Below, piece by piece: positions 6,915 through 45,387 of a stretch of DNA of 64,000 bases. Position numbers and translations under genes: made by a program. The DNA comes from Acidobacteriota bacterium (lineage in GTDB: Bacteria; Acidobacteriota; UBA6911; RPQK01; JANQFM01). Position 1 is the first letter of the stretch. Each line of letters opens with the position of its first letter. The notes under the pieces were generated by a model, which worked only from the letters and a program-made list of their open reading frames with translations, made no database searches and was not told where the DNA came from. The DNA is taken from NCBI GenBank assembly GCA_041630155.1, contig JBFKLX010000003.1, forward strand, positions 1,915-65,914, read 5' to 3'.

Positions 6915-7135
6915 ACGGCGAGCCCGCTCGTCTGCCCAGCGGTCGATCCGAGAATTCTGGGCTCGATACATCTTGCGCCGGCGCTCTCTCTGGGCCACGC
7001 ATGGGAGCGATGGCGGTCTATGAGCGTGCTCTCACTCATGGCGGCACGACGAGCCGGCCTCCCCGTCCTTTCTCCAGCTCGATCCAACGGCCTGGTGGCC
7101 CTGCGAGCGCTCGAGACCTCGATTCCTGAGAATCT

Positions 7136-7227
7136 GGACAGGGTTACAGGATCTTCAGGATTTTGTTTCGAGTCCCGCGCGGGACCCCCTGGCGAGCCAA
7201 CTTGCCCAGCCAACTTGCCCTGTCCCC
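7136..7227 (+). repeat. Intergenic GC-rich inverted-repeat element (copy A): GGACAGGGTTACAGGATCTTCAGGATTTTG ... tandem AGCCAACTTGCCC x2 ... TGCCCTGTCCCC
   Basis: Core shared with copies at 18669-18749 and 42777-42797; the GGACAGGG and CCCTGTCC ends are reverse complements. Confidence 0.6.
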
Positions 7228-7287: not shown

Positions 7288-8253
7288 TCAGCGGCGCAAA
7301 CCCCGGAGAAACTCGGTCACAACCTCCTCGAATTTCTGAGGTTCCTCGAGGGGCGCGAAATGGCCGCTCTTTTCGAAGACCACGAACCGGGACCCCTCGA
7401 TGGCCTGGTGAGTTTCTGCCAGCCGTTCCGGGGGCAGGAGGTCGCTCCGACCGGCGATGAGCAGGACCGGGCAATGGATCTGGGGCAGCCTCGCCCGGGC
7501 GTCCCGCTGTGGGGTGTCGGGTCCGTTGGCGTAGTTCATGTGCCTCCAGCTCAAACCGGTGTCACGGTAGAGCGTGGGAAGAATCTGGCGTCCTTGCCCA
7601 GGGTCGGCGAACAGAAACGGAAACCAGGTCTCGATCACGAACCGGCGGTGTTTGAGCCTGAGTCCCTCCGGCGTCAAGCGCTCCGTGCTCAGCTGAGCTT
7701 GGTAGTTGGCGAAGGCTCGAATCATCTCGGGGCGTTCGCGCTCGACCCTTTCCTGGTCCTCTTCCGAGAAGTTGGCCGACGCGTGGAGGATGATTGCAGC
7801 CGCCACCGAATCCGGGTGTTCGGCCGTGAAGTGCAACAGGTTGATGCCGCCGTTGGACCACCCCAGGATCGGGACTTTGCCCAGGTCGAGGTGCCGGCGC
7901 AATGCCTCCAGATCAGTCCGGACGGCCGCCATCGAGAGATCCTCTTCCTGCATCGCCGGGGCAGAGCCTCCCATGCCGCGTGGGTCGAAATAGACCAGCG
8001 TGAAACTCTTTTCCAGGGGTCGGAAGAGGGCTCTCAAGCCCTGGTGGGTGAGGCCCCACGAGTTGGGCAAGATCATCAGCACGGGTCCTTGCCCGTGAAC
8101 GGCGTAATGAATGGTCGTCCCGTTCAGGTCGGCGTCGAACTCCCCCAGAGGCAGCGCGGCCGGAACCGGCTGGACGGAGGCGAGGGCACAGCTCAGGGTC
8201 AGGCTCAGGACAGCGGTGATCATCAGAGTCCCTTCTTGCACAATAGCGTACAC
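7288..8253 (-). CDS. Secreted alpha/beta hydrolase (prolyl aminopeptidase-like fold)
   Basis: Nucleophile elbow GWSNGG; signal peptide from the alternative start MITAVLSL (8223). Confidence 0.75.
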   Translation of the reverse strand: MYAIVQEGTLMITAVLSLTLSCALASVQPVPAALPLGEFDADLNGTTIHYAVHGQGPVLMILPNSWGLTHQGLRALFRPLEKSFTLVYFDPRGMGGSAPAMQEEDLSMAAVRTDLEALRRHLDLGKVPILGWSNGGINLLHFTAEHPDSVAAAIILHASANFSEEDQERVERERPEMIRAFANYQAQLSTERLTPEGLRLKHRRFVIETWFPFLFADPGQGRQILPTLYRDTGLSWRHMNYANGPDTPQRDARARLPQIHCPVLLIAGRSDLLPPERLAETHQAIEGSRFVVFEKSGHFAPLEEPQKFEEVVTEFLRGLRR

Positions 8254-17356: not shown

Positions 17357-17965
17357 CTACTTCATCAGTCGAGCAAGTCGAGCCGAGCTTTCGGCAACAC
17401 CTTCTTGCACGTTGACGGCTGCGTAGAGATCGCGGGCTTCCTCCCACAACCGGCAAGCTTCTTCGCTTTGTCCACGAGATTCCTCCAGTATTGCCAAGGG
17501 CCGAATTGCGTTCGCGAGATCGAGCGGGTGAGTTTGCTCATGCCCGCGATAGATCGCGAGCGCTTCGTGATAGCAGGTCTCCGCGAGTTTCGCGCGGCCC
17601 GCATCCTGGTGGATGTCACCGAGATGCCGAACGGTGTGGGCAAGTGTGAGAGGGTCGCCATCTTCGCGGCAAATGGCGACGGCTTCTTCGTAAAACGCCC
17701 GCGCAGCGTCGCTGTGCCCCAGGTCTCGTTCGATCTGGCCGAGTCGCTTGAGTGCCTGGATCAATTCGTGGCCCACGCCAGCCTGGCGACAGAGTGCCAC
17801 GGCCTCGACGAGATTCCGGTGCGCATCGGCCATTCGATCCTGAGCTCGTTGGGAGCGAGGCCCAAGAGAAAGTGCCTCTCGTCGCGCGCGATCGGCTAAT
17901 CGAATGAGTTCTGCGGCATCTTCTGCCATCGATCCCTCCAGGTACTCCCTTCTGGTCTGCAACAA
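17357..17965 (-). CDS. TPR-repeat protein
   Basis: Repeated A..Y..AL..y helical pairs. Confidence 0.55.
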   Translation of the reverse strand: MLQTRREYLEGSMAEDAAELIRLADRARREALSLGPRSQRAQDRMADAHRNLVEAVALCRQAGVGHELIQALKRLGQIERDLGHSDAARAFYEEAVAICREDGDPLTLAHTVRHLGDIHQDAGRAKLAETCYHEALAIYRGHEQTHPLDLANAIRPLAILEESRGQSEEACRLWEEARDLYAAVNVQEGVAESSARLARLMK

Positions 17966-18049
17966 GTGTCCACGGACGTCCCGATCGCCCTCAAGCGGGT
18001 CGGTCTGGCCGTACCCAGCGTGTCATACGATTTCGAAACCTGCGTGAGC

Positions 18050-18379
18050 CTATTCAGCGCGTCGATTTGCCATTTCACCAGCTGCGCCGACAACCAACCG
18101 ATGACAGCTCCGCCCAGGAGTCCCATGACCCAGGATCGGCAGGTGAGTCTTGGAGATGATCGCGGACGGCAGACTCACCAACAGGCCGACCAGCGCTCCG
18201 CGCGCCCACCCCGGCCAGGGAAAGCCTACCAGAGGCACCAGAAAACCGCTGGCGAACCGGTCCGTGAAGGCGCCCAAGAGCGCTACCGTCTTGTCCGGAA
18301 GGTCCAATGGCAACATCAGACCCACCGACAAAGCTCCGACTGCAAGGCCCGCCACGATACCGAATAGAATCGCGTTCAT
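18050..18379 (-). CDS. Hypothetical membrane protein, possibly frameshifted (hydrophobic continuation in the adjacent frame 17896-18126)
   Basis: TM-rich ORF; the neighbouring frame continues GLLGGAVIGWLSAQL. Confidence 0.3.
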   Translation of the reverse strand: MNAILFGIVAGLAVGALSVGLMLPLDLPDKTVALLGAFTDRFASGFLVPLVGFPWPGWARGALVGLLVSLPSAIISKTHLPILGHGTPGRSCHRLVVGAAGEMANRRAE

Positions 18380-18575
18380 TCCGCACCTCGCCAGGCTTGG
18401 TAACCAATCATTGTTCTTCAGTATTCACGGAATGGTGGAGCTCGCCAAGTCATTGGATTCCATTTCTGGTTTGCTGCGACTCGCGGACGGGCAGGGCTCG
18501 GTCGGCTCGCTGAACGCAGGAGGCAAACCTCGTTGCGCCTCCGCAGGATGCCAGGAGTCAGAATCGTCGACTTGG

Positions 18576-18653
18576 CCGACCTCGTGAGGTGCCTTGCCAG
18601 GACGCCGCAATTCACACGCAGCACCTGCCGCAAAGAGGGCGGTCAAATTCCCC
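18576..18653 (+). repeat. ~80-bp conserved intergenic motif, copy R1 (3' side of alr)
   Basis: CCGACCTCGTGAGGTGCCTTGCCAGGACGCCGCAATTCACACGCAGCACCTGCCGC...TCAAATTCC; ~75% identical to 20343-20429; contains a GGTGCC/GGCACC stem. Confidence 0.6.
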
Positions 18654-18668
18654 CGTCCCACTCGAGCA

Positions 18669-18749
18669 AAACTTGCCCTGTCCCCGAACGGGAGGGGGGT
18701 CTTCCTGCGCAGAATATCGGACAGGATTACAGGATCTTCTAGGATTTCG
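18669..18749 (+). repeat. Intergenic GC-rich inverted-repeat element (copy B): AAACTTGCCCTGTCCCC ... GGACAGGATTACAGGATCTTCTAGGATTTCG
   Basis: Shares both sub-motifs with copy A, in swapped order. Confidence 0.6.
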
Positions 18750-18871
18750 TTGAGGTCCAGCCCGGGGCCCACGGTCTGTTTTGGACAGGGCAGTTCCAGG
18801 GCGCACAACGTTTGGGACGTCGCCTCGGCCGGTGCCATCGCACACGAGACGATGTTTACGGATCACGGTAC

Positions 18872-20098
18872 TCAGGCGAGCCGTCTCGGCAAGAGTGGAT
18901 TCAAGTGCATGGTGAGATCGTAGACGGAGGCCCCACAGGCCGCGGAGACATCTTCCGGCCGAGAGCCCGCCCGCCAGTCGAACACCGTGGCAACGTCACC
19001 GACCCCCACCCGAGGGTCGGTGCCAATCTCTACGATGCAGTGGCTCGCCGACACGCTCGCGACAATGGGATAGAATTCGTCTCCGATCCGGACCTTGACA
19101 CTGTTTGCCGCCGAGCGCGGGAGGCCGTCTCCGTGACCCAGCGGCAGCGTTGCCACCCAAACGTCGCGCTCAGCTCGATAGGCGCGGTTGTATCCCGCAC
19201 TATCGCCCCGGCGAAGCTGCTTCACATAGACGACTCGAGTCTTGAGCGCCAGCGCAGGCCTCAGTTCCATGGCGCCGAGCTGTGCGAACTCCGGCTCCGG
19301 GTAGACTCCATAGATTGCCATGCCGGGTCGCACCATGTCGAGAAAGGCTTTGGGATGCTGGAAGAGGGCGTAGCTGGAGGCGGCGTGCTTCTTTCCCAGC
19401 GGAATCCCCTCCGAAGCGAGTCTTCCGCAGAGCGCTTGGAAGCGACCCAGCTGCTCGATGTCGAACTCTGGATCCTCGGTAAATGTCATCATGATGCCAT
19501 CCATCCGAACCGAACTCCGGCTCGCCAGCTCTCGGACCAGCATCGCTGCTTCTCGATGCGGAACACCGACGCGTCCAATGCCGGTGTCGACGCAGACCTG
19601 AATCGGGACGGGTTTTTGTCTCTTGACGGCGAGCCGGTCGAGAGAGTCGCCGATGGGCGTGTACACCATCGGAGTGATTTCGCGCTGGACCGCCTCCTCG
19701 AGGTTCCGGTCGTCGAATGGGCCCATGAGGAGAATGGGTTTCTGAATACCTGCATCTCGAAGCACCATCGCCTCTTGAAGTTTCACCACGGCAACTCCTC
19801 CGATCCCGGCGAGCGGCCCCAGCTGTCGAGCTGCGTTGACCGCTCCCAGGCCGTAACCATTGTTCTTGATGACAGCCAGAATAGGTCGCTTCGAGACGCG
19901 GCGGTGAATCTGGTCGACGTTGTGGCGAAGGTTCTCGCGGTGGATCTCCACCCAGGGATCGAAGGAGGAGCTGCTCTCGTCTGCTGACTGAGGAAGCGTG
20001 CTTCCAGCTGCCGAAGAAAGCGTGTGCGAAGTACGGGCCGTTGCGGCGAGTGCCGCTCCCGCAGTGAGGAACGATCGGCGCGAGAGAGTCATGGTCAC
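18872..20098 (-). CDS. alr: Alanine racemase family PLP enzyme with twin-arginine (TAT) signal peptide, predicted periplasmic
   Basis: SRRSFLTAGAALAA TAT motif; PLP-lysine region AVIKNNGYGLG; 408 aa. Confidence 0.75.
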   Translation of the reverse strand: MTMTLSRRSFLTAGAALAATARTSHTLSSAAGSTLPQSADESSSSFDPWVEIHRENLRHNVDQIHRRVSKRPILAVIKNNGYGLGAVNAARQLGPLAGIGGVAVVKLQEAMVLRDAGIQKPILLMGPFDDRNLEEAVQREITPMVYTPIGDSLDRLAVKRQKPVPIQVCVDTGIGRVGVPHREAAMLVRELASRSSVRMDGIMMTFTEDPEFDIEQLGRFQALCGRLASEGIPLGKKHAASSYALFQHPKAFLDMVRPGMAIYGVYPEPEFAQLGAMELRPALALKTRVVYVKQLRRGDSAGYNRAYRAERDVWVATLPLGHGDGLPRSAANSVKVRIGDEFYPIVASVSASHCIVEIGTDPRVGVGDVATVFDWRAGSRPEDVSAACGASVYDLTMHLNPLLPRRLA

Positions 20099-20342
20099 CT
20101 CCCCGAGAATTCTGGACCAACCGCACTATAACGTTCCCGGAGAAGGGCGGCAATTCAATGAGCTCGAGCCCCCTCCGCCAGTCTTTTTTATAGATGGCAG
20201 GGCTACGCATGACTCATTCGGCCTAATGAGGATGGCAGGCGGGTATACTCGGTGGGCGAGCAGCGCACGGGTGTGGAGCCGCGTCGCGCCACCGCAGAAT
20301 GCCGGCGCGCCGCACGAGTATCGAAACTCTGGCGAAATGCGA

Positions 20343-20429
20343 CCGACCTCGCGAGGTGCCGTGCCAGGGCAGCGCAATTCGCGCGCGGCACCGGCCGCGA
20401 GGGTGGGAGAGGCGGATCGTCAAAGCTCC
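20343..20429 (+). repeat. ~85-bp conserved intergenic motif, copy R2 (5' side of alr)
   Basis: CCGACCTCGCGAGGTGCCGTGCCAGGGCAGCGCAATTCGCGCGCGGCACCGGCCGCGAGGG...TCAAAGCTCC; same orientation as R1. Confidence 0.6.
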
Positions 20430-20450
20430 TTCGCAGTCGCCGACTGAGGC

Positions 20451-21194
20451 TTGCAGATGCTTTTGCCGACCGTGTTCGATCACCTGCTGGCGAGCCTGAT
20501 CTGCCTCGTCTTGCCCGCCGTTGGAGCAATGCAACAACGAGGATCGACCACCCAGGCGGAGCCTGCTGAGTTCGAGCCGTGGGAAAAGATCGCGACCTAC
20601 TGGAGCAACAGCGCCGTGTTGGCCCTGCTCGCCGCTTTGGGGTTACTGACCTGGTGGGCCGCCGGTCGAACCTGGCATGACCTCGGCCTGACGGCGCCAC
20701 CGGCTCGGCTCGGTTGGGGCCTCCTGCTGGCACTGCTCTTTCTCCTCGTGTACGCACTCGATACCTGGCGGCAGCTCATTCCGGAGCGTCTCCCTGCAAC
20801 CAGAGCGAGGTGGCGCCGCGACACCCCTTTCATGCCGCAAACTGCTCTCGAGGTGCGCTACTCCTTGGTGCTGGTGAGTACGGCTGCAGTCGCCGAGGAG
20901 ATTCTCTACCGCGGCTTCCTGATCGCCTACGCGGCGCACTTCACGGGCCCGTCGGCTCTCGGACTTGCGGCGGCAGTCGCCCTGCCGGCCGCGGTTTTCG
21001 GTTTCAGCCATTTCTATCAGGGGTGGCGCGCCGTGTTCAAGATTCTGCTCCTGGCGACTGTGTTCGGCGCGATTTTCCTGGTAACACACTCGCTGTGGAT
21101 CCCCATCCTTCTGCACTTTCTGGTGGATCTCATCGGGATGTTGCTCGGGCCGAAGCTGCTGGGGCCTGGGAAGGGTGGCGCCGCCTCGACGTGA
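20451..21194 (+). CDS. CPBP family intramembrane metalloprotease (CAAX protease-like)
   Basis: EEILYRGF, FGFSH and HFLVD motifs in a polytopic membrane protein. Confidence 0.75.
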   Translation: MQMLLPTVFDHLLASLICLVLPAVGAMQQRGSTTQAEPAEFEPWEKIATYWSNSAVLALLAALGLLTWWAAGRTWHDLGLTAPPARLGWGLLLALLFLLVYALDTWRQLIPERLPATRARWRRDTPFMPQTALEVRYSLVLVSTAAVAEEILYRGFLIAYAAHFTGPSALGLAAAVALPAAVFGFSHFYQGWRAVFKILLLATVFGAIFLVTHSLWIPILLHFLVDLIGMLLGPKLLGPGKGGAAST

Positions 21195-38261: not shown

Positions 38262-38449
38262 GACGTAGCTCGCCCTGCGGCGACTCCCGGAGCGGATTTT
38301 TGCCCGGTCGTGTCGCCTCAGGGCCCGGGGCATCTGACTGCGCCGCTGGGGCATTCGGCCCGGAAGGGAGAACCTGATGTCCGGAACAGCGCATTGGCCG
38401 ACGCTCTAGGTTATCGGCGGGTACTGCGTCCCCCACTCTTGCCATTCTC

Positions 38450-38465
38450 TGGCACATCCCTTGCT
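38450..38465 (+). promoter_or_regulatory. Sigma-54 (-24/-12) promoter consensus TGGCACatcccTTGCT
   Basis: Exact GG-N10-GC spacing; ~180 nt upstream of the giant-protein ATG. Confidence 0.55.
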
Positions 38466-38645
38466 CGCAATAGCGGCAAATTCACGTTCTTTGCCCGCCT
38501 GACCTCGGGAAGAGGGGCCATGAGCCAATCCGCCAGCCTGTGTTCCGGACCAACCGAAGGGCCATTGGCTCGTCTCTGGCTTCACCCTCGGATGCCGTTC
38601 TCGGGGTGCCTGCGAGCAGCATCGAGAAACAGTCGGGAGACCGCC

Positions 38646-41600
38646 ATGGCCGAGCCGAGATTCAAGTTCAATTCTAGCCAAATCGTGCTTCTGCTGGGAT
38701 TCTGGGTTGCCCTTGCAGGCGTTGCCGAGCCGGCCCTCGCGGGCACGTACTCCAATGGGGTTTACGAGGAACAGTACTTCGGCGGCCAGGCGACACTGCG
38801 GTTCGAGTTCCGGGCCGATGAAGCCATCCCGATCTCGATCCGGGAGGTAGTCGAAAACTACGGCGGGTACGTTTATCCCTACACTTACTTTCTGATTCAT
38901 CACGAATTGCGTGCGAGCATCATCACCTACTCCGTCTCGGGGTCTGCCCAGGTGACCTTGACCCGTTCCAGCGAACAATTCGACTGGAGTTCCCGAAGGC
39001 TGATCTCCGCCAATCCCTTCCGCATGCAGGTCAACACGTATTACCGTTTCCAGCTGCGCGCCAGTGGGCAGCCGGACGTGTACGCGTACTTCACCCTGGA
39101 GCAGACGCAAGCCCCGCCCAATGTCGAGATGGAAGTCTCGGCCACTCCCTGGCTGGATCTGGAGGAGCCGACTCGGGCCTTGATTCCCGCCGACCGGCGA
39201 TTCCCGGCGAAGTTCAAGATCAGCCTGGTGGATGCCGACAGCTACCCCAAAGAGCCGTTCACCGAGCCCCAATCCGTATTCGTGACCCTCGCGGACAGCG
39301 AGAGGGGAACGCTGGAGTCATTGCAGACGTCGGCATCGGGCCGGCAAATCACTTTGACCACCGACGACAAAGGTGAAGCGGAGTTCCAATACGTGTATCT
39401 GGGAAACGCCCCCCAAAGCCAGCCTTTGCAGGAGTCGATTGCGATCGAATGTCCCGCGCTCGGCCTGGAGGAGTCTGCCAGCGTGTCCATCGGATTGAAA
39501 CCGGAAATCCTGGAGGTGGTCAAGCGCTGGGATAGCAGAACCCAGTTGCCCCGAACGATGGGGCTTCGGGTCCAGGTGCGAGACGAGTTCTGGCCCGATC
39601 TGGACTACCTGGAATACAATCGGCGGCTGAGTCTTGCCGACCCGGAAGGCGAGACGCTGGGTGTCTTCCTGACCACCACCTGGCTCAACCCCCCCGATGA
39701 GGAAGGGCACATCGCCGATTTCCTGGAGTACCTGCAGATGGGCTTCGCCTTGAGCGATGAGGACGAATTCTACGACGGGCGGGGGTACGTCGAGATACTC
39801 AAGGGCAGATACCTGTTCAAGGCTATCGACAGCCCCGCGGTGACCCTGGAAATGCGTTTTCCGGCGCACGTCTTCGTCCGCCCGGGGACACGCTGGTTGA
39901 CGGCTCAACTCGAGCTGATCGTGGCGCCCGAGGAAGTCGCCAGTCCGCTCGAAAAGATCTTCGGCACCCAGAGCAATACGATCATCTACGCGGTCGACGT
40001 GATGCGTGGGGGGGAAAGTGTCCTGCAGTCGATTGCCTGTTCGTTTCAGCCGACGACCTCGGCTCAATACTGGGTGAAGTACACGCTCAATCACGACTAT
40101 TTCAAGCATGCCTTGGAGGTCGGCGGGGGCGCCGGATACATCGTGAGCATGCGAACGGTGCAGTTGTTCGACCTGACCTGTGAATACCTGCAGGGCAACT
40201 ACTTCAACGTCATGCAAGCCCTCGTCGGGGAATACCTCAGCAACCTGGACGCCCTTCGTGAGTCGGGGGAGCTCGAGTTGAGTGCAGGGGAGGCGCGGCA
40301 GCTGGCTCGCTACCTCACTGTCAGTGAAGGCAAGGACATGTACGACGTCCTGAATTTCACGGCCGACGAAATACTGGGGAATCAGGACTCACGGTTTTCG
40401 AGCTGGCCGCCGCGGGGACGGCGATTCACCCGGCCCAGCGAGTCGCTACCGGAAATCCCTCCCGGCGTGGACCTGGCCGAGTTGAGGCAAATCTTCAACG
40501 AGTCGCTCCTGGGGTTGCTGGCGGGGATGGGTGAGGAGGGACTCGAGATCATCGCCGTCTCCAATGGAACCGTTCAACTGCTCAGTCCCGACTCGAGTCC
40601 CTACCCGGAGGAGTCGATTCTCGCTGCCGTCGAGAGCGAGGGGAGCAAGATCTACCTCCTCCCGGAGAACACGGCGCTTCTGGCCGTGGAGCACTCGGGA
40701 GCGCTTCAGATCAATCGTTTTCTGTACGGCCCGGGCGCGACCATGGAGACCGCCTGGTACTCGGTGGGAGACCCGCAGGCACCGGCCACCAGCAGCCTGG
40801 ATTGTTCTCAGGGCCTGAATGCGCAGCTTCTGGTCGACGCGGGGTCCAACGGCTCGGTCGATGAGACCTTGGCTCCCGCCACCACTTCCTACACCCCCTC
40901 TCCGGACGATCTGGACGGGGTGGCGGCAGTCGTGGAGGACCAGGGCCCCAACGGCGGAGATGCCAACCGTGACGGTCTCTTGGACAGCACTCAGCCGAAC
41001 GTGGCTTCGTTGCCCAACGCGGTCGATTCCCGGTATGTGACGCTGGTCTCGCCCGCAGGGACTCGTCTCCGCGGCGTACAGGCCTTGGAGCAGATCGAGG
41101 CCGATCCCGCTCCCGAAGGCGTCAGCTTCCCGCTCGGGCTGTTCGAATTTCACGTCGAAGGGTTGGAAACCGGAGGGTCGACCACCGTTGAGATGCTCCT
41201 GCCCGAGGGAGTGCAAGTCAACTCGTACTACATTCGCGGGTCGACGACCGGGGAAGGCACGGACCACTGGTACGCCTTTCCCTACGACCAGGAAACCGGT
41301 TCGGAACTGGAAGAAGACCTGGTTCGGCTGCATTTTCGAGATGCCGGCAGAGGCGACAGCTACCCATTTCCGGACGGAGTGATCATCGAGCCTGGCGGAC
41401 CGGCTTTCGTGATCCGAGAGGATCGCCTGAACTTCGCCCAGTTCGCCACCGGCGGAGGGCTCTTCAGTGAAGTGGTCCTGTTGAATCTGGATGCGGAAAC
41501 CGAGGCGGACGTGGAGGTCTACTTTCGGGACGACGACGGCCAGCCTCTGAGCTACCAAGCCGGCAGCAGGGAGGTGCCTGGATTCATGCACCTTTCGATT

Positions 41601-42743
41601 CCGGCTGCGGGAATGAGAGTGTTTCAAACCGACGGAGGAGGAGTTGGAGTGGCAGGATCGGCCGATGTTCGTTCCAGCCGTCCGCTGGCCGGAGTCTTGA
41701 TCTTCGGCGGTGCTTTCGGCTTGGCAGGTGTCGGCGACAGCCAGGATTTGACGGTATTCTCAGCACCCATGGAGAAAACCGATTCCCGTGGAATCAACAC
41801 CGGGATCGCTGTGATGAACGCAGCCGACGCGCCCACCGACCTCGACCTGCGTCTCCGTGGCGCCGACGGAGAGGAGCTGGCAACCGCCTCGGAAAACCTT
41901 CCGGGGAGGGGACACAAAGCGGTTTTTGTCGACCAGTTCGACTGGAGTCCGCCGGTCGACTTCAGCGACTTTCGGGGAGTCCTGGAGGCGAGCAGCAGCG
42001 GACCCATCGGAGTCACGGTCCTGCAGACCAGGCCGGGGCAGTTCGCCACCATGCCGGTGGCCCCGCCGCCGGGTGGCAGCGGATCGGCCTCTCCCGACCT
42101 GAATTTTGCTCAATTCGCCACCGGTGGAGGGCTGTCCAGTGAGATCATCCTTCTGAATCTGGACGCCGGAACCGAAGCCCAGGCGGAGGTGCATTTTCGG
42201 GACGACGTGGGGAATCCCTCGAGCTTCGAGCTGGACGGCGCCAGCGTCGACGGCCAGCTGCAGCTCTCGATTCCGGCGTCGGGGGTGAGGGTCCTCCAGA
42301 CGGACGGGAGCGGCCCGCCGGTCTCGGGCTCGGCCCGGGTCAGCTCCGATGCGCCACTGGCTGGGGTGCTGGTCTTCGGCGGCAGCTTCGGTCTCGCCGG
42401 TGTCGGGAGCAGCCAGGAGCTGACGGGTTTTCTGGCTCCGATGGAAAGGATCGCGTCCGCCGGCATCAATACGGGAATCGCAGTCATGAATGGGGACGAC
42501 TCACCGGTGAATCTGGACCTGCGGCTGCTGGACGTGGACGGCCGGGAACTGGCGACGGCCAATGAGACGATTCCCGCTCGAGGACACAAAGCGGTCTTCG
42601 TCAACCAGTTCGACTGGAGCCCGGCGATGGCTCTCGCGGACTTTCGCGGAATCATGGAAGTCACCAGCAGTGGGCGAATCGCCGTCACGGTCCTGCAAAT
42701 CCGCCCCGGCCAGTATGCGACGATGCCGGTGGGGAGCAGGTGA
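38646..42743 (+). CDS. Giant secreted protein (1,366 aa): novel N-terminal region, a Ca-binding D-x-N-x-D-G loop + beta-sandwich domain ending ...RGDSYPFPDGVIIEPGGPA, then a tandemly duplicated two-domain C-terminal module
   Basis: Signal peptide MAEPRFKFNSSQIVLLLGFWVALAGVAEPALA. Internal repeats LNFAQFATGGGL...(x2) and GINTGIAVMN...GHKAVFV.QFDWSP...(x2). Confidence 0.7.
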   Translation: MAEPRFKFNSSQIVLLLGFWVALAGVAEPALAGTYSNGVYEEQYFGGQATLRFEFRADEAIPISIREVVENYGGYVYPYTYFLIHHELRASIITYSVSGSAQVTLTRSSEQFDWSSRRLISANPFRMQVNTYYRFQLRASGQPDVYAYFTLEQTQAPPNVEMEVSATPWLDLEEPTRALIPADRRFPAKFKISLVDADSYPKEPFTEPQSVFVTLADSERGTLESLQTSASGRQITLTTDDKGEAEFQYVYLGNAPQSQPLQESIAIECPALGLEESASVSIGLKPEILEVVKRWDSRTQLPRTMGLRVQVRDEFWPDLDYLEYNRRLSLADPEGETLGVFLTTTWLNPPDEEGHIADFLEYLQMGFALSDEDEFYDGRGYVEILKGRYLFKAIDSPAVTLEMRFPAHVFVRPGTRWLTAQLELIVAPEEVASPLEKIFGTQSNTIIYAVDVMRGGESVLQSIACSFQPTTSAQYWVKYTLNHDYFKHALEVGGGAGYIVSMRTVQLFDLTCEYLQGNYFNVMQALVGEYLSNLDALRESGELELSAGEARQLARYLTVSEGKDMYDVLNFTADEILGNQDSRFSSWPPRGRRFTRPSESLPEIPPGVDLAELRQIFNESLLGLLAGMGEEGLEIIAVSNGTVQLLSPDSSPYPEESILAAVESEGSKIYLLPENTALLAVEHSGALQINRFLYGPGATMETAWYSVGDPQAPATSSLDCSQGLNAQLLVDAGSNGSVDETLAPATTSYTPSPDDLDGVAAVVEDQGPNGGDANRDGLLDSTQPNVASLPNAVDSRYVTLVSPAGTRLRGVQALEQIEADPAPEGVSFPLGLFEFHVEGLETGGSTTVEMLLPEGVQVNSYYIRGSTTGEGTDHWYAFPYDQETGSELEEDLVRLHFRDAGRGDSYPFPDGVIIEPGGPAFVIREDRLNFAQFATGGGLFSEVVLLNLDAETEADVEVYFRDDDGQPLSYQAGSREVPGFMHLSIPAAGMRVFQTDGGGVGVAGSADVRSSRPLAGVLIFGGAFGLAGVGDSQDLTVFSAPMEKTDSRGINTGIAVMNAADAPTDLDLRLRGADGEELATASENLPGRGHKAVFVDQFDWSPPVDFSDFRGVLEASSSGPIGVTVLQTRPGQFATMPVAPPPGGSGSASPDLNFAQFATGGGLSSEIILLNLDAGTEAQAEVHFRDDVGNPSSFELDGASVDGQLQLSIPASGVRVLQTDGSGPPVSGSARVSSDAPLAGVLVFGGSFGLAGVGSSQELTGFLAPMERIASAGINTGIAVMNGDDSPVNLDLRLLDVDGRELATANETIPARGHKAVFVNQFDWSPAMALADFRGIMEVTSSGRIAVTVLQIRPGQYATMPVGSR

Positions 42744-42776
42744 ACACTGGCTCAACCGGACTCAGACAAGACCCTG

Positions 42777-42797
42777 AAGATCCTGTAATCCTGTCCA
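42777..42797 (-). repeat. Intergenic repeat element (copy C, inverted orientation): revcomp = GGACAGGATTACAGGATCTTC
   Basis: 21/21 identity to the copy B core. Confidence 0.55.
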
Positions 42798-42891
42798 GGC
42801 TCTCCGGAAACGGGCAGGTTGGTTTGACTGTGCCTTCCCCCAAAACCCCTGCTGGATTCCCGTTTGGACCCGGGCCAGCTACACTAACGCC

Positions 42892-45225: not shown

Positions 45226-45387
45226 GCCCCCGACCCGAGGGCATCACCTCGGGGCGGGGACAGGGCGACTTTTCCCGCCTGAAAACTCGTCTCCCCGCTA
45301 AGGGCGGAAAAAGCCCGCAGCAGGTCTCGGCGAAGTCGGCCGAGTCCGATAGAAAGTCGTTCCTTCTGCGGTCCAGGACGGGTGCCG

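What the first reader, a model, noticed from the sequence alone, without database searches (positions are those of the whole stretch)
18576..20429. TAT-exported alanine racemase bracketed by a conserved ~85-bp direct repeat
Two same-orientation copies (18576-18653 and 20343-20429, ~75% identical, both containing a GGTGCC...GGCACC stem and a GCGCAATTCGCGC near-palindrome) flank the alr gene (18872-20098, minus strand). The racemase itself carries a twin-arginine signal (SRRSFLTAGAALAA), implying a periplasmic, cofactor-loaded racemase (D-amino-acid production in the envelope, as with Bsr-type enzymes). Bracketing repeats could be att-like remnants of a cassette insertion, a structured RNA, or regulatory sites.
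Basis: seen in the sequence. Interest (0 to 1): 0.5.

Follow-up and report, generated by a model that had tools for sequence, protein, structure and literature searches.

The report
Private hairpin repeat flanking Tat-signal racemase
An alanine racemase gene with a well-conserved twin-arginine export signal lies between two diverged copies of a roughly 130-base hairpin-forming non-coding repeat that was found nowhere else, so the repeat looks like lineage-private repeat DNA, not a conserved switch or a gene cassette.

Summary
Two same-orientation copies of a non-coding element flank alr at 1767-nt spacing. The element is larger than reported: a 25-nt block, a variable spacer, then a 65-75-nt imperfect palindrome (18522-18650 and 20273-20414; core 84% identical).

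- **Copies:** there is no third copy in the 64 kb.
- **Relatives:** none of 85 alr-ortholog loci has the element, and 70 of them tested for flanking repeats show none. Pattern scans of public genomes and metagenomes gave no real match.
- **Known families:** no Rfam match, no coding signal, no attC core sites, and no integrase or transposase in the window. Folding is no better than shuffled sequence.
- **Constraint:** a 99.8%-identical second assembly has 2 of its 12 SNPs in copy 1, and both break the closing helix.
- **Context:** an unrelated dispersed repeat with three copies shares the same spacer.

My best reading (about 0.4) is a lineage-private REP/MITE-like repeat or a duplication relic. 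A shared operator and a recombination footprint remain possible.

The Tat signal is well supported. SRRSFL is present, RR is invariant in 18 homologs, and RRxFL occurs in at least 73 of 80 genome orthologs. The enzyme is a canonical-type Alr, not a Bsr. Interest is low to moderate.

The parts
18522..18650 (+). Repeat element E, copy 1. It consists of block A (18528-18552), a 23-nt spacer with a small hairpin, and an imperfect palindromic core (18572-18646). It lies in the alr-orf109 spacer, downstream of the alr stop and about 150 nt upstream of the orf109 start.
   Evidence: It is the weaker hairpin. The near-identical assembly L143 has 2 SNPs here, at 18577 and 18642.
20273..20414 (+). Repeat element E, copy 2. 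It consists of block A (20279-20303), a 39-nt spacer, and the palindromic core (20343-20408). The core has the helices CCTCGCG/CGCGAGG and GGTGCCGTGC/GCGCGGCACC. It lies in the divergent alr-CPBP spacer, 187 nt upstream of the alr ATG and 43 nt upstream of the CPBP ATG.
18872..20092 (-). alr, a PLP-dependent alanine racemase homolog of 406 aa counted from ATG 20092. The listed ORF starts at GTG 20098.
   Evidence: Pfam Ala_racemase_N and Ala_racemase_C. TIGR00492 equivalog at 238 bits against a cut-off of 168. The catalytic Lys (AVIKNNGYG) and Tyr (SAGYNRAY) align to solved Alr structures.
20027..20092 (-). Twin-arginine (Tat) signal peptide region, MTLSRRSFLTAGAALAATART. The cleavage site is not determined.
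   Evidence: One search gives the sequence. RR is invariant in A3. RRxFL is present in at least 73 of 80 orthologs. Pfam TAT_signal gives 16.6 bits here, and 9 of 18 homologs hit it.
20125..20153 (-). Sigma-70-like promoter candidate for alr (TTGCCG-17-TATAGT). It lies between E copy 2 and the alr start.
   Evidence: This is a consensus match only. If it is real, E copy 2 lies about 125 nt upstream of the -35 hexamer and is not in the alr 5' UTR.
18702..18770 (+). Copy F2 of an unrelated dispersed repeat family F, in the same spacer as E copy 1 and about 50 nt away from it. The core is GGACAGGNTTACAGGATCTTC.
   Evidence: The other copies are at 7123-7187 (+) and 42758-42812 (-).
18050..18379 (-). 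orf109, a small membrane protein gene downstream of E copy 1 on the minus strand. It belongs to a 102-aa family and its C-terminus is frameshifted.
   Evidence: The frameshift is also present in L143.
20457..21194 (+). CPBP/Rce1-like intramembrane protease gene, divergent from alr. E copy 2 ends 43 nt upstream of its ATG.
   Evidence: P0121 is 100% identical and confirms the start.

Best explanation
The two flanking sequences are diverged members of a lineage-private, non-coding, hairpin-forming intergenic repeat. It belongs to the same general class as REP/BIME clusters or small MITE-like elements. Each copy is about 130 nt and has a 65-75-nt imperfect palindrome preceded by a shorter block that resembles one palindrome arm. 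Such DNA multiplies or is duplicated at the DNA level and survives in intergenic spacers, where it does little harm. If transcribed, it can fold into a long imperfect stem-loop.

On this reading the bracketing of alr reflects where the two copies ended up, by local duplication or independent insertion. It is not part of a conserved control or mobility mechanism for alr. The gene itself is an ordinary, chromosomally native member of a large clade of alanine racemases that carry a Tat export signal.

Shown here: the repeat is real, non-coding, rare, absent from relatives, and not under visible structural constraint. Inferred: the repeat class and how it spread.
For: - **Real and specific.**
- **Not coding.** Differences between the copies are mostly non-synonymous in every frame, and the frame of the only long ORF has a stop in copy 2. 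That 137-aa ORF matches only itself and one spurious weak hit among 1.84 billion representative proteins.
- **Not conserved with alr.** A profile search found nothing in 85 ortholog loci covering 672 kb. None of 70 ortholog loci has a comparable upstream/downstream repeat (maximum z 3.9 against 18.6 here). Gene neighbours are not syntenic either.
- **Private to the lineage.** No real match came from pattern scans of 185,579 species genomes or 241 million metagenome records. Searches returned nothing, and the two hits do not extend. Plasmids gave nothing.
- **This genome does carry repeats of this kind.** Family F has three dispersed copies of similar length and pairwise identity (80-84%), in both orientations, and one sits 50 nt from E copy 1.
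- **No sign of constraint.** Folding is no better than shuffles. Copy 1 is a decayed version of the copy 2 palindrome. In a 99.8%-identical second assembly, 2 of 12 SNPs fall in copy 1 and both break adjacent pairs of the closing helix, raising the MFE from -29.4 to -24.3 kcal/mol. That SNP rate is like the rest of the intergenic DNA (p = 0.075).
- **No mobility genes, attC cores or compositional break.**
Against: - Only two copies are seen, and they sit in adjacent spacers in the same orientation. With random placement among the window's 32 spacers this has a probability of about 4-6%, halved again for orientation. That favours a local origin or a shared function over random dispersal.
- The roughly 14-nt arm unit is not enriched in the window (18 hits against 25.6 expected).
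- No REP-associated transposase, terminal inverted repeats with target-site duplication, or other hallmark of a mobile repeat was found.
- The genome-wide copy number could not be measured, because the rest of the genome is not available to the tools.
- Two conserved blocks separated by a variable spacer could reflect selection on the blocks.
Confidence: 0.4

Rival explanations
1. Shared cis-regulatory module. The element is an operator or upstream binding array, with two direct sites and one inverted GGTGCC-type site. One DNA-binding regulator would use it to co-control neighbouring envelope genes. These would be alr and orf109 on the minus strand, with each copy 150-190 nt upstream of a start codon, and/or the CPBP protease on the plus strand.
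For: - Both copies lie upstream of a minus-strand gene at similar distances: 149 nt to orf109 and 187 nt to alr.
- All three adjacent genes encode envelope proteins.
- The architecture is two conserved blocks with a variable spacer, plus palindromic symmetry.
- Adjacency and shared orientation are expected under co-regulation.
Against: - The element is absent upstream of every alr, CPBP and orf109 ortholog examined.
- Distances to the candidate promoters differ, at roughly 125 versus 65 nt.
- There is no sigma-54 promoter that would make a far-upstream site plausible.
- Copy 1 has lost much of the palindrome, and a sister strain carries two further disruptive SNPs.
- Any direct repeats in these two spacers would lie upstream of minus-strand genes anyway, so the position carries no information.
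Confidence: 0.22
2. Recombination footprint. The 1767-bp unit (alr, its promoter and one element copy) entered or moved into an ancestral orf109-E-CPBP spacer by a single crossover at the element, or by a segmental duplication followed by loss. Either route leaves a direct repeat on both sides, as in Campbell-type integration or cassette capture.
For: - Direct repeats in the same orientation that bracket exactly one gene are the topology expected from single-crossover integration.
- Removing one period would leave a roughly 310-nt divergent spacer of ordinary size.
- The genomic position of alr differs in every relative examined.
- Adjacency is explained without invoking chance.
Against: - No integrase, transposase or relaxase among the ORFs scanned across the 64 kb.
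- No attC R'/R'' core sites.
- No identical core segment longer than 9 nt between the copies.
- GC content is native and GC3 is only slightly below that of the neighbouring genes.
- The would-be insert itself contains native dispersed repeats (F2 and the AACTTGCCCTGTCCCC motif), so any such event was intragenomic or ancient.
- No relative with an empty site was found.
Confidence: 0.2
3. Structured non-coding RNA. This would be a leader, riboswitch-like element or small RNA present as two paralogs, with alternative pairings between block A, the left arm and the right arm.
For: - RNAalifold finds consensus structures on both strands. These include a long-range helix between block A and the right arm on the minus strand, in which most differences are G-C to G-U changes.
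- The spacer forms a small hairpin in both copies despite different sequences.
Against: - With two sequences there is no real covariation test.
- No Rfam match even at E <= 10.
- MFE z-scores of -1.5 to +1.3 against shuffles.
- No terminator or conserved promoter at either copy.
- The strand preference of the wobble pairs is contradictory between helices.
- Strain SNPs break the closing helix without compensation.
- No homolog in any related locus or public collection.
Confidence: 0.08

Closest known systems
REP elements and BIME clusters (repetitive extragenic palindromes of Proteobacteria)
   Same: Non-coding, extragenic and GC-rich. Built from imperfect palindromic units in direct and inverted orientation separated by short variable spacers. 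Located between genes, including 3' of a gene.
   Different: REPs occur in tens to hundreds of copies per genome. Here only two copies are seen in 64 kb, and the arm unit is not enriched. No REP-associated tyrosine transposase was seen. The unit is longer and the copies more diverged (84%).
MITE-like small non-autonomous elements (for example Correia elements)
   Same: Length of about 130 nt. The ends are partly inverse-complementary (block A against the right arm). The location is intergenic, and other repeat families occur in the same spacer.
   Different: No clear terminal inverted repeats with sharp boundaries, no target-site duplication, no parent IS or transposase in the window, and an unknown copy number.
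Integron gene cassettes with attC sites (including CALIN arrays)
   Same: Same-orientation imperfect palindromes bracket a single ORF. The palindrome has two stems separated by an asymmetric internal loop.
   Different: The conserved RYYYAAC and GTTRRRY core sites are absent. No IntI was found. There are 180-220-nt spacers and an apparent own promoter instead of a compact promoterless cassette.
Periplasmic broad-spectrum racemases (BsrV of Vibrio cholerae, Alr/Bar of Pseudomonas putida, ArgR of P. taetrolens)
   Same: A fold-type III PLP racemase carrying an N-terminal export signal, and therefore predicted to act in the envelope (PMC6034422, PMC7890096).
   Different: The signal here is Tat-type. 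From my own recollection of Matsui et al. 2009, not re-read here, ArgR is exported independently of Tat. In sequence the protein is much closer to canonical Alr and VanT (161-145 bits) than to Bsr structures (83-91 bits). It keeps the Alr-type specificity Tyr.
Canonical cytoplasmic alanine racemases (Alr/DadX, TIGR00492)
   Same: Passes the equivalog model. The catalytic Lys and Tyr, the PLP-binding motif and the Tyr354-equivalent are all conserved.
   Different: It has an N-terminal extension of about 45 residues containing a conserved twin-arginine signal. This extension is shared by 269 species-level genomes of Acidobacteriota, Gemmatimonadota and Bacteroidota/Ignavibacteria.

Membership tests
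Integron attC site / gene cassette | Conserved core sites R'' (RYYYAAC) and R' (GTTRRRY) at the two ends of the palindrome | tested here: not met
   No GTTRRRY on either strand between 16262 and 22129, so none in either copy.
Integron attC site / gene cassette | Integron integrase (IntI) nearby, or an array of several attC sites | tested here: not met
   No recombinase domain in any ORF scanned across the 64 kb. Only two copies are present.
Integron attC site / gene cassette | Imperfect palindrome folding into two stems with unpaired spacer and extrahelical bases | tested here: inconclusive
   Copy 2 folds as 7 bp, then an asymmetric loop, then 10 bp. Copy 1 is much weaker. This shape is not specific to attC.
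REP/BIME | Short imperfect palindromic units in extragenic DNA, clustered in direct and inverted orientation | tested here: met
   Both copies are intergenic and non-coding. The palindromic core plus an arm-like block A are shown.
REP/BIME | High genomic copy number (tens to hundreds) | tested here: inconclusive
   Two copies in 64 kb and no enrichment of the unit. The whole genome is not available to the tools. No translated copies appear among 1.84 billion representative proteins.
MITE | Terminal inverted repeats flanked by a target-site duplication | tested here: inconclusive
   The ends are partly complementary, but the boundaries are blurred and no duplication is visible on reading the flanks.
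Known RNA families (Rfam 15) | Covariance-model match | tested here: not met
   No hit at the gathering threshold in the window, and none at E <= 10 in 18300-20700.
Tat signal peptide | S/T-R-R-x-F-L consensus in the n-region, followed by a weakly hydrophobic h-region | tested here: met
   MTLSRRSFLTAGAALAATART, with a basic residue in the c-region. RR is invariant in 18 homologs. RRxFL is present in at least 73 of 80 orthologs.
Tat signal peptide | Pfam PF10518 TAT_signal above the gathering score | tested here: not met
   16.6 bits against a cut-off of 22.7 for the window protein. Nine of 18 homologs hit at E <= 0.05, the best at 1e-5.
Tat signal peptide | Export depends on TatABC and on the RR pair | not testable with these tools
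   Requires fractionation and an RR-to-KK mutant.
Alanine racemase (TIGR00492 equivalog) | Score above the curated cut-off and the catalytic Lys/Tyr pair | tested here: met
   238.3 bits against 168. The Lys in AVIKNNGYG and the Tyr in SAGYNRAY align to solved Alr structures and are invariant in A3.
Broad-spectrum racemase (Bsr) family | Closer to Bsr members than to alanine-specific racemases | tested here: not met
   Bsr structures score 83-91 bits (4beu, 4beq, 7agz, 4dyj), against 145-161 bits for Alr and VanT.
Broad-spectrum racemase (Bsr) family | Bsr residue fingerprint that widens the entry channel (Espaillat et al. 2014, cited in PMC7890096) | not tested
   The fingerprint positions were not available in the papers I could read. 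The Tyr354-equivalent of strict Alr enzymes is retained (PMC4542195).
Broad-spectrum racemase (Bsr) family | Racemises several amino acids (Lys, Arg, Met, Leu and others) | not testable with these tools
   Needs an enzyme assay.

The most novel reading that the evidence does not exclude
The two elements are the recombination sites of an unrecognised gene-cassette or translocatable-unit system, with the recombinase encoded elsewhere in the genome. This system would have captured or moved the Tat-alr gene. That would explain why a single gene is bracketed by same-orientation palindromes, and why alr sits in a different neighbourhood in every relative.
Probability: 0.06. Interest if true: 0.65.

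Novelty: new member of a known kind. Interest (0 to 1): 0.28.

Why it matters
As it stands, the repeat is a curiosity. It shows that this acidobacterial lineage carries private families of short hairpin repeats in its spacers (E here, and F found in passing). It also shows that a repeat bracketing a gene need not mean mobility or regulation.

The direct repeats could still matter in practice. Sequences of 56-65 nt at 84% identity flanking a single gene are a substrate for recombinational loss or amplification of alr.

The more useful by-product concerns the enzyme. A canonical-type alanine racemase with a conserved twin-arginine signal is widespread, with 269 species-level genomes across Acidobacteriota, Gemmatimonadota and Bacteroidota/Ignavibacteria. 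If export is confirmed, a folded, PLP-loaded racemase would be acting on alanine in the periplasm of abundant soil bacteria. That bears on turnover of D-alanine from peptidoglycan necromass. It would also differ from the known Bsr enzymes. From my own recollection, not re-read here, at least one of these is exported independently of Tat.

Tried and rejected
1. **Known RNA family.** Rfam was searched at the gathering threshold on the whole window and at E <= 10 on 18300-20700, with no hits. There are no tRNA or tmRNA genes in the window.
2. **Thermodynamic signal.** Eight folds, covering both copies, both strands and two lengths, gave z-scores from -1.5 to +1.3.
3. **Coding explanation.** Six-frame comparison of the copies shows mostly non-synonymous differences and a stop in copy 2 in the frame of the 137-aa ORF. 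That ORF has no Pfam or NCBIfam hit. It matches only itself and one spurious weak hit among 1.84 billion representatives.
4. **A third copy.** A profile search with nhmmer --max found none in the window. None was found in 85 alr loci or in 52 further loci.
5. **Public collections.** Four exact-pattern scans were run: genomes 0 hits, metagenomes 0 hits, metagenomes 2 chance hits, and viral contigs chance 15-mer hits only. Plasmid blastn gave none.
6. **Conserved bracketing in relatives.** None of 70 ortholog loci shows it.
7. **Synteny, to find an empty site.** The neighbours of alr, CPBP and orf109 orthologs are all different. The divergent 109-aa gene in L092 looked promising but is an unrelated gene.
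8. **Sigma-54 promoter plus upstream activator site.** No -24/-12 element was found in either spacer.
9. **ECF-type or sigma-70 promoters conserved inside the element.** Reading both copies found none. The only scan hit is the alr promoter candidate, which lies outside the element.
10. **attC sites.** No core sites were found.
11. **Foreign origin of alr.** There is no GC or skew anomaly, and GC3 is only slightly lower than in the neighbours.
12. **The source contig itself.** It could not be retrieved. A sister assembly (L143) covers only copy 1.
Full report
**1. What is in the sequence**

The region holds three genes.
- A minus-strand ORF at 18872-20098 encodes a two-domain alanine racemase (Pfam Ala_racemase_N and Ala_racemase_C; TIGR00492 at 238 bits against a cut-off of 168).
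- A CPBP/Rce1-like intramembrane protease gene is transcribed divergently on the plus strand from ATG 20457.
- A small membrane-protein ORF lies on the minus strand at 18379-18050.

The two spacers on either side of alr each contain one copy of the same sequence, in the same orientation.
- Positions 18576-18631 and 20343-20398 are 84% identical over 56 nt without gaps.
- The gapped local alignment of 18576-18643 against 20343-20407 scores 69, against 21 +/- 2 for shuffles.
- Degenerate consensus patterns of 26 and 28 nt match only these two places in 64 kb, with none expected.

**2. Refined anatomy**

The repeat is larger than reported. With the core removed, the left flanks still share a significant 25-nt block, 18528-18552 against 20279-20303 (21/25 identical; none of 500 shuffles reaches its score). 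The right flanks share nothing. This block A is separated from the core by 23 nt in copy 1 and 39 nt in copy 2. The unit therefore spans about 18522-18650 and 20273-20414 (alignment A2).

The core is a long imperfect palindrome.
- In copy 2 it has the helices CCUCGCG/CGCGAGG and GGUGCCGUGC/GCGCGGCACC plus an outer CC/GG pair (MFE -40 kcal/mol).
- Copy 1 is a decayed version. It has AGCACC instead of GGCACC, an AAA bulge, and has lost the inner GCG...CGC hairpin (-29 kcal/mol).

Block A resembles the left arm and is partly complementary to the right arm, and RNAalifold pairs them on the minus strand. The element thus reads as two direct arm-like units plus one inverted unit. I treat this internal similarity as suggestive only.

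**3. What it is not**

- **Not coding.** In every frame the differences between the copies are mostly amino-acid changing. The frame of the only long ORF across copy 1 (137 aa, 18838-18425) has a stop in copy 2. That ORF has no family match. It matches only itself and one spurious weak hit among 1.84 billion representative proteins.
- **Not a known RNA.** There is no Rfam match at the gathering threshold in the window, and none at E <= 10 in the region.
- **Not unusually stable.** Fold z-scores lie between -1.5 and +1.3.
- **Not an integron attC.** No GTTRRRY or RYYYAAC core occurs anywhere between 16262 and 22129.
- **No mobility genes.** No recombinase or transposase domain occurs in any ORF scanned across the 64 kb. 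The window is core chromosome: alternative complex III, cytochrome oxidase, ABC transporter and sodium:solute symporters.
- **No sigma-54 promoter** that would make a distant upstream activator site plausible.
- **No compositional break**.

**4. Distribution**

A profile of the two copies finds no third copy in the window. The arm unit is not enriched there (18 hits with up to 3 mismatches against 25.6 expected).

The alr protein has thousands of homologs, with the best at 70% identity from Acidobacteriota MAGs. I collected 85 ortholog loci covering 672 kb.
- None contains the element.
- None of 70 testable loci has any comparable repeat between its upstream and downstream spacers (maximum z 3.9 against 18.6 here).
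- None shares the window's neighbouring genes.

The nearest CPBP and orf109 orthologs also lie in different neighbourhoods without the element.

Exact-pattern scans of 185,579 species-representative genomes and 241 million metagenome records returned either nothing or two hits. Those two hits are a simple tandem repeat and a seed-only match. The window's own contig is not in those collections, so the genome-wide copy number could not be measured.

**5. A sister assembly**

The annotated orf109 protein is also on an NCBI contig of another assembly (GCA_041594635.1, 6468 bp). That contig equals window 19571-13104 at 99.8% identity, with 12 substitutions and no gaps. It covers copy 1 only.

Two of the 12 substitutions fall in copy 1 (18577 C>A and 18642 G>T). 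They hit adjacent base pairs of the closing helix on opposite arms and are not compensatory. The predicted MFE rises from -29.4 to -24.3 kcal/mol and the fold changes.

The enrichment is nominal against the whole contig (p = 0.023) but not against intergenic DNA alone (p = 0.075). Copy 1 therefore evolves like unconstrained spacer DNA.

**6. Context that changes the picture**

Self-comparison of the window turned up a second, unrelated repeat family, F. Its invariant core, GGACAGGNTTACAGGATCTTC, occurs at 7136-7156 (+), 18719-18739 (+) and 42776-42796 (-), with 0.01 expected by chance. Extended pairwise identity is 80-84%.

A short motif, AACTTGCCCTGTCCCC, also recurs at 7212, at 18670 and, inverted, at 45255.

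F2 and this motif sit in the same spacer as E copy 1, about 50 nt away. So this genome does carry private, dispersed, short intergenic repeats with the same length range and divergence as E, and the alr-orf109 spacer is a patchwork of them.

**7. Most likely explanation and its rivals**

I favour, at about 0.4, the reading that E is another lineage-private hairpin repeat of the REP/BIME or MITE kind, or a relic of a local duplication of such DNA, with no conserved role in alr biology.

The main weakness is that the two copies lie in adjacent spacers in the same orientation. That has only about a 4-6% chance under random placement, halved again for orientation.

This keeps two local explanations alive.
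- **A shared operator for neighbouring envelope genes (0.22).** Each copy lies 150-190 nt upstream of a minus-strand start codon. Against it, there is no conservation, distances to the promoter candidates are unequal, and copy 1 is decaying.
- **A recombination footprint left when alr moved into an orf109-E-CPBP spacer (0.2).** The topology fits. Against it, there are no recombinase, no core sites, no identical core, native composition, and native repeats inside the would-be insert.

A structured RNA (0.08) has no positive support beyond RNAalifold output on two sequences.

**8. The racemase**

The N-terminus MTLSRRSFLTAGAALAATART fits the Tat consensus.
- The RR pair is invariant in 18 aligned homologs.
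- RRxFL is found in at least 73 of 80 orthologs from genome assemblies. Most of the rest carry variants that my pattern missed.
- Pfam TAT_signal hits 9 of 18 members, although the window protein is below the cut-off.

The clade was found in 269 species genomes. Among the 80 listed are Acidobacteriota classes, Gemmatimonadota and Bacteroidota/Ignavibacteria.

The mature part is a canonical-type Alr.
- The best solved relatives are Alr and VanT at 145-161 bits, whereas Bsr structures score 83-91 bits.
- The catalytic Lys and Tyr are present.
- The Tyr equivalent to Tyr354 of the Geobacillus enzyme is retained. Replacing that Tyr with Asn opens the site to serine (PMC4542195). Here it lies in SVYDL, which aligns to INYEV.

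Export to the periplasm is therefore a well-supported inference. Broad specificity is not supported, and the analogy with Bsr enzymes holds only for location. I found no paper describing a Tat-dependent alanine racemase in the searchable library. From my own recollection, not re-read here, the periplasmic ArgR of Pseudomonas taetrolens was shown to be Tat-independent.

**9. Verdict**

The repeat is best filed as a new, private member of the known class of intergenic palindromic repeats, with low to moderate interest.

The decisive missing datum is the copy number of E in the complete genome. After that come an empty-site comparison in a close relative and transcript mapping.

Noticed in passing
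window 7123-7187 (+), 18702-18770 (+), 42758-42812 (-): A second, unrelated dispersed intergenic repeat family (F). Its invariant 21-nt core GGACAGGNTTACAGGATCTTC occurs three times, with 0.01 expected by chance. In each case its reverse complement lies downstream of a gene's stop codon: 133 nt after alr, 132 nt after the hydrolase gene 7288..8253, and 33 nt after 38310..42743. It has no Rfam match and is absent from the 142 loci fetched up to that call.
   Followed up: partly
window 7212-7227 (+), 18670-18685 (+), 45255-45273 (-): The short motif AACTTGCCCTGTCCCC recurs in three spacers. On the minus strand at 18697-18664 it is part of a hairpin followed by GUUUUG, which could be the alr terminator. 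At 45228-45259 it lies in a palindrome just after the stop codon of the 42892..45225 gene.
   Followed up: partly
window 18050-18379 (-) and 17896-18126 (-): orf109 belongs to a family of 102-aa, four-helix membrane proteins of unknown function, with homologs in Thermoanaerobaculia and other Acidobacteriota MAGs. It appears frameshifted near codon 83, because homologs align to the next frame. The same frameshift is present in the sister assembly, so it is probably real.
   Followed up: partly
L143 (GCA_041594635.1, JBFHLZ010000176.1) = window 19571-13104: A second public assembly carries this region at 99.8% identity with 12 SNPs. Its contig ends inside alr at window position 19571, so copy 2 and the CPBP gene are not covered.
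   Followed up: yes
window 18425-18838 (-): A 137-aa ORF is called as a gene in the record of the sister assembly. It is made almost entirely of repeat elements E and F and the short motif. It matches only itself and one spurious weak hit among 1.84 billion representative proteins, so it is probably a spurious call.
   Followed up: yes
window 38310-42743 (+): A 1477-aa ORF with no Pfam match contains an internal tandem duplication of about 635 nt (41426-42060 against 42098-42732, 68% identical).
   Followed up: no
L001 7290-8984 and L002 1703-3397: In one of the closest alr orthologs (69% identity), the Tat-signal racemase gene is followed about 95 nt later, on the same strand, by a 564-aa Amidohydro_3 protein. 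From memory, that family includes D-aminoacylases, so this may be a functional link to D-amino-acid metabolism. It is not present in the window.
   Followed up: no
L006-L085 (80 genome loci): The Tat-signal alanine racemase clade is not confined to Acidobacteriota. Orthologs at 60-69% identity, each with an RRxFL N-terminus, occur in MAGs labelled Gemmatimonadota, Bacteroidota and Ignavibacteria.
   Followed up: partly
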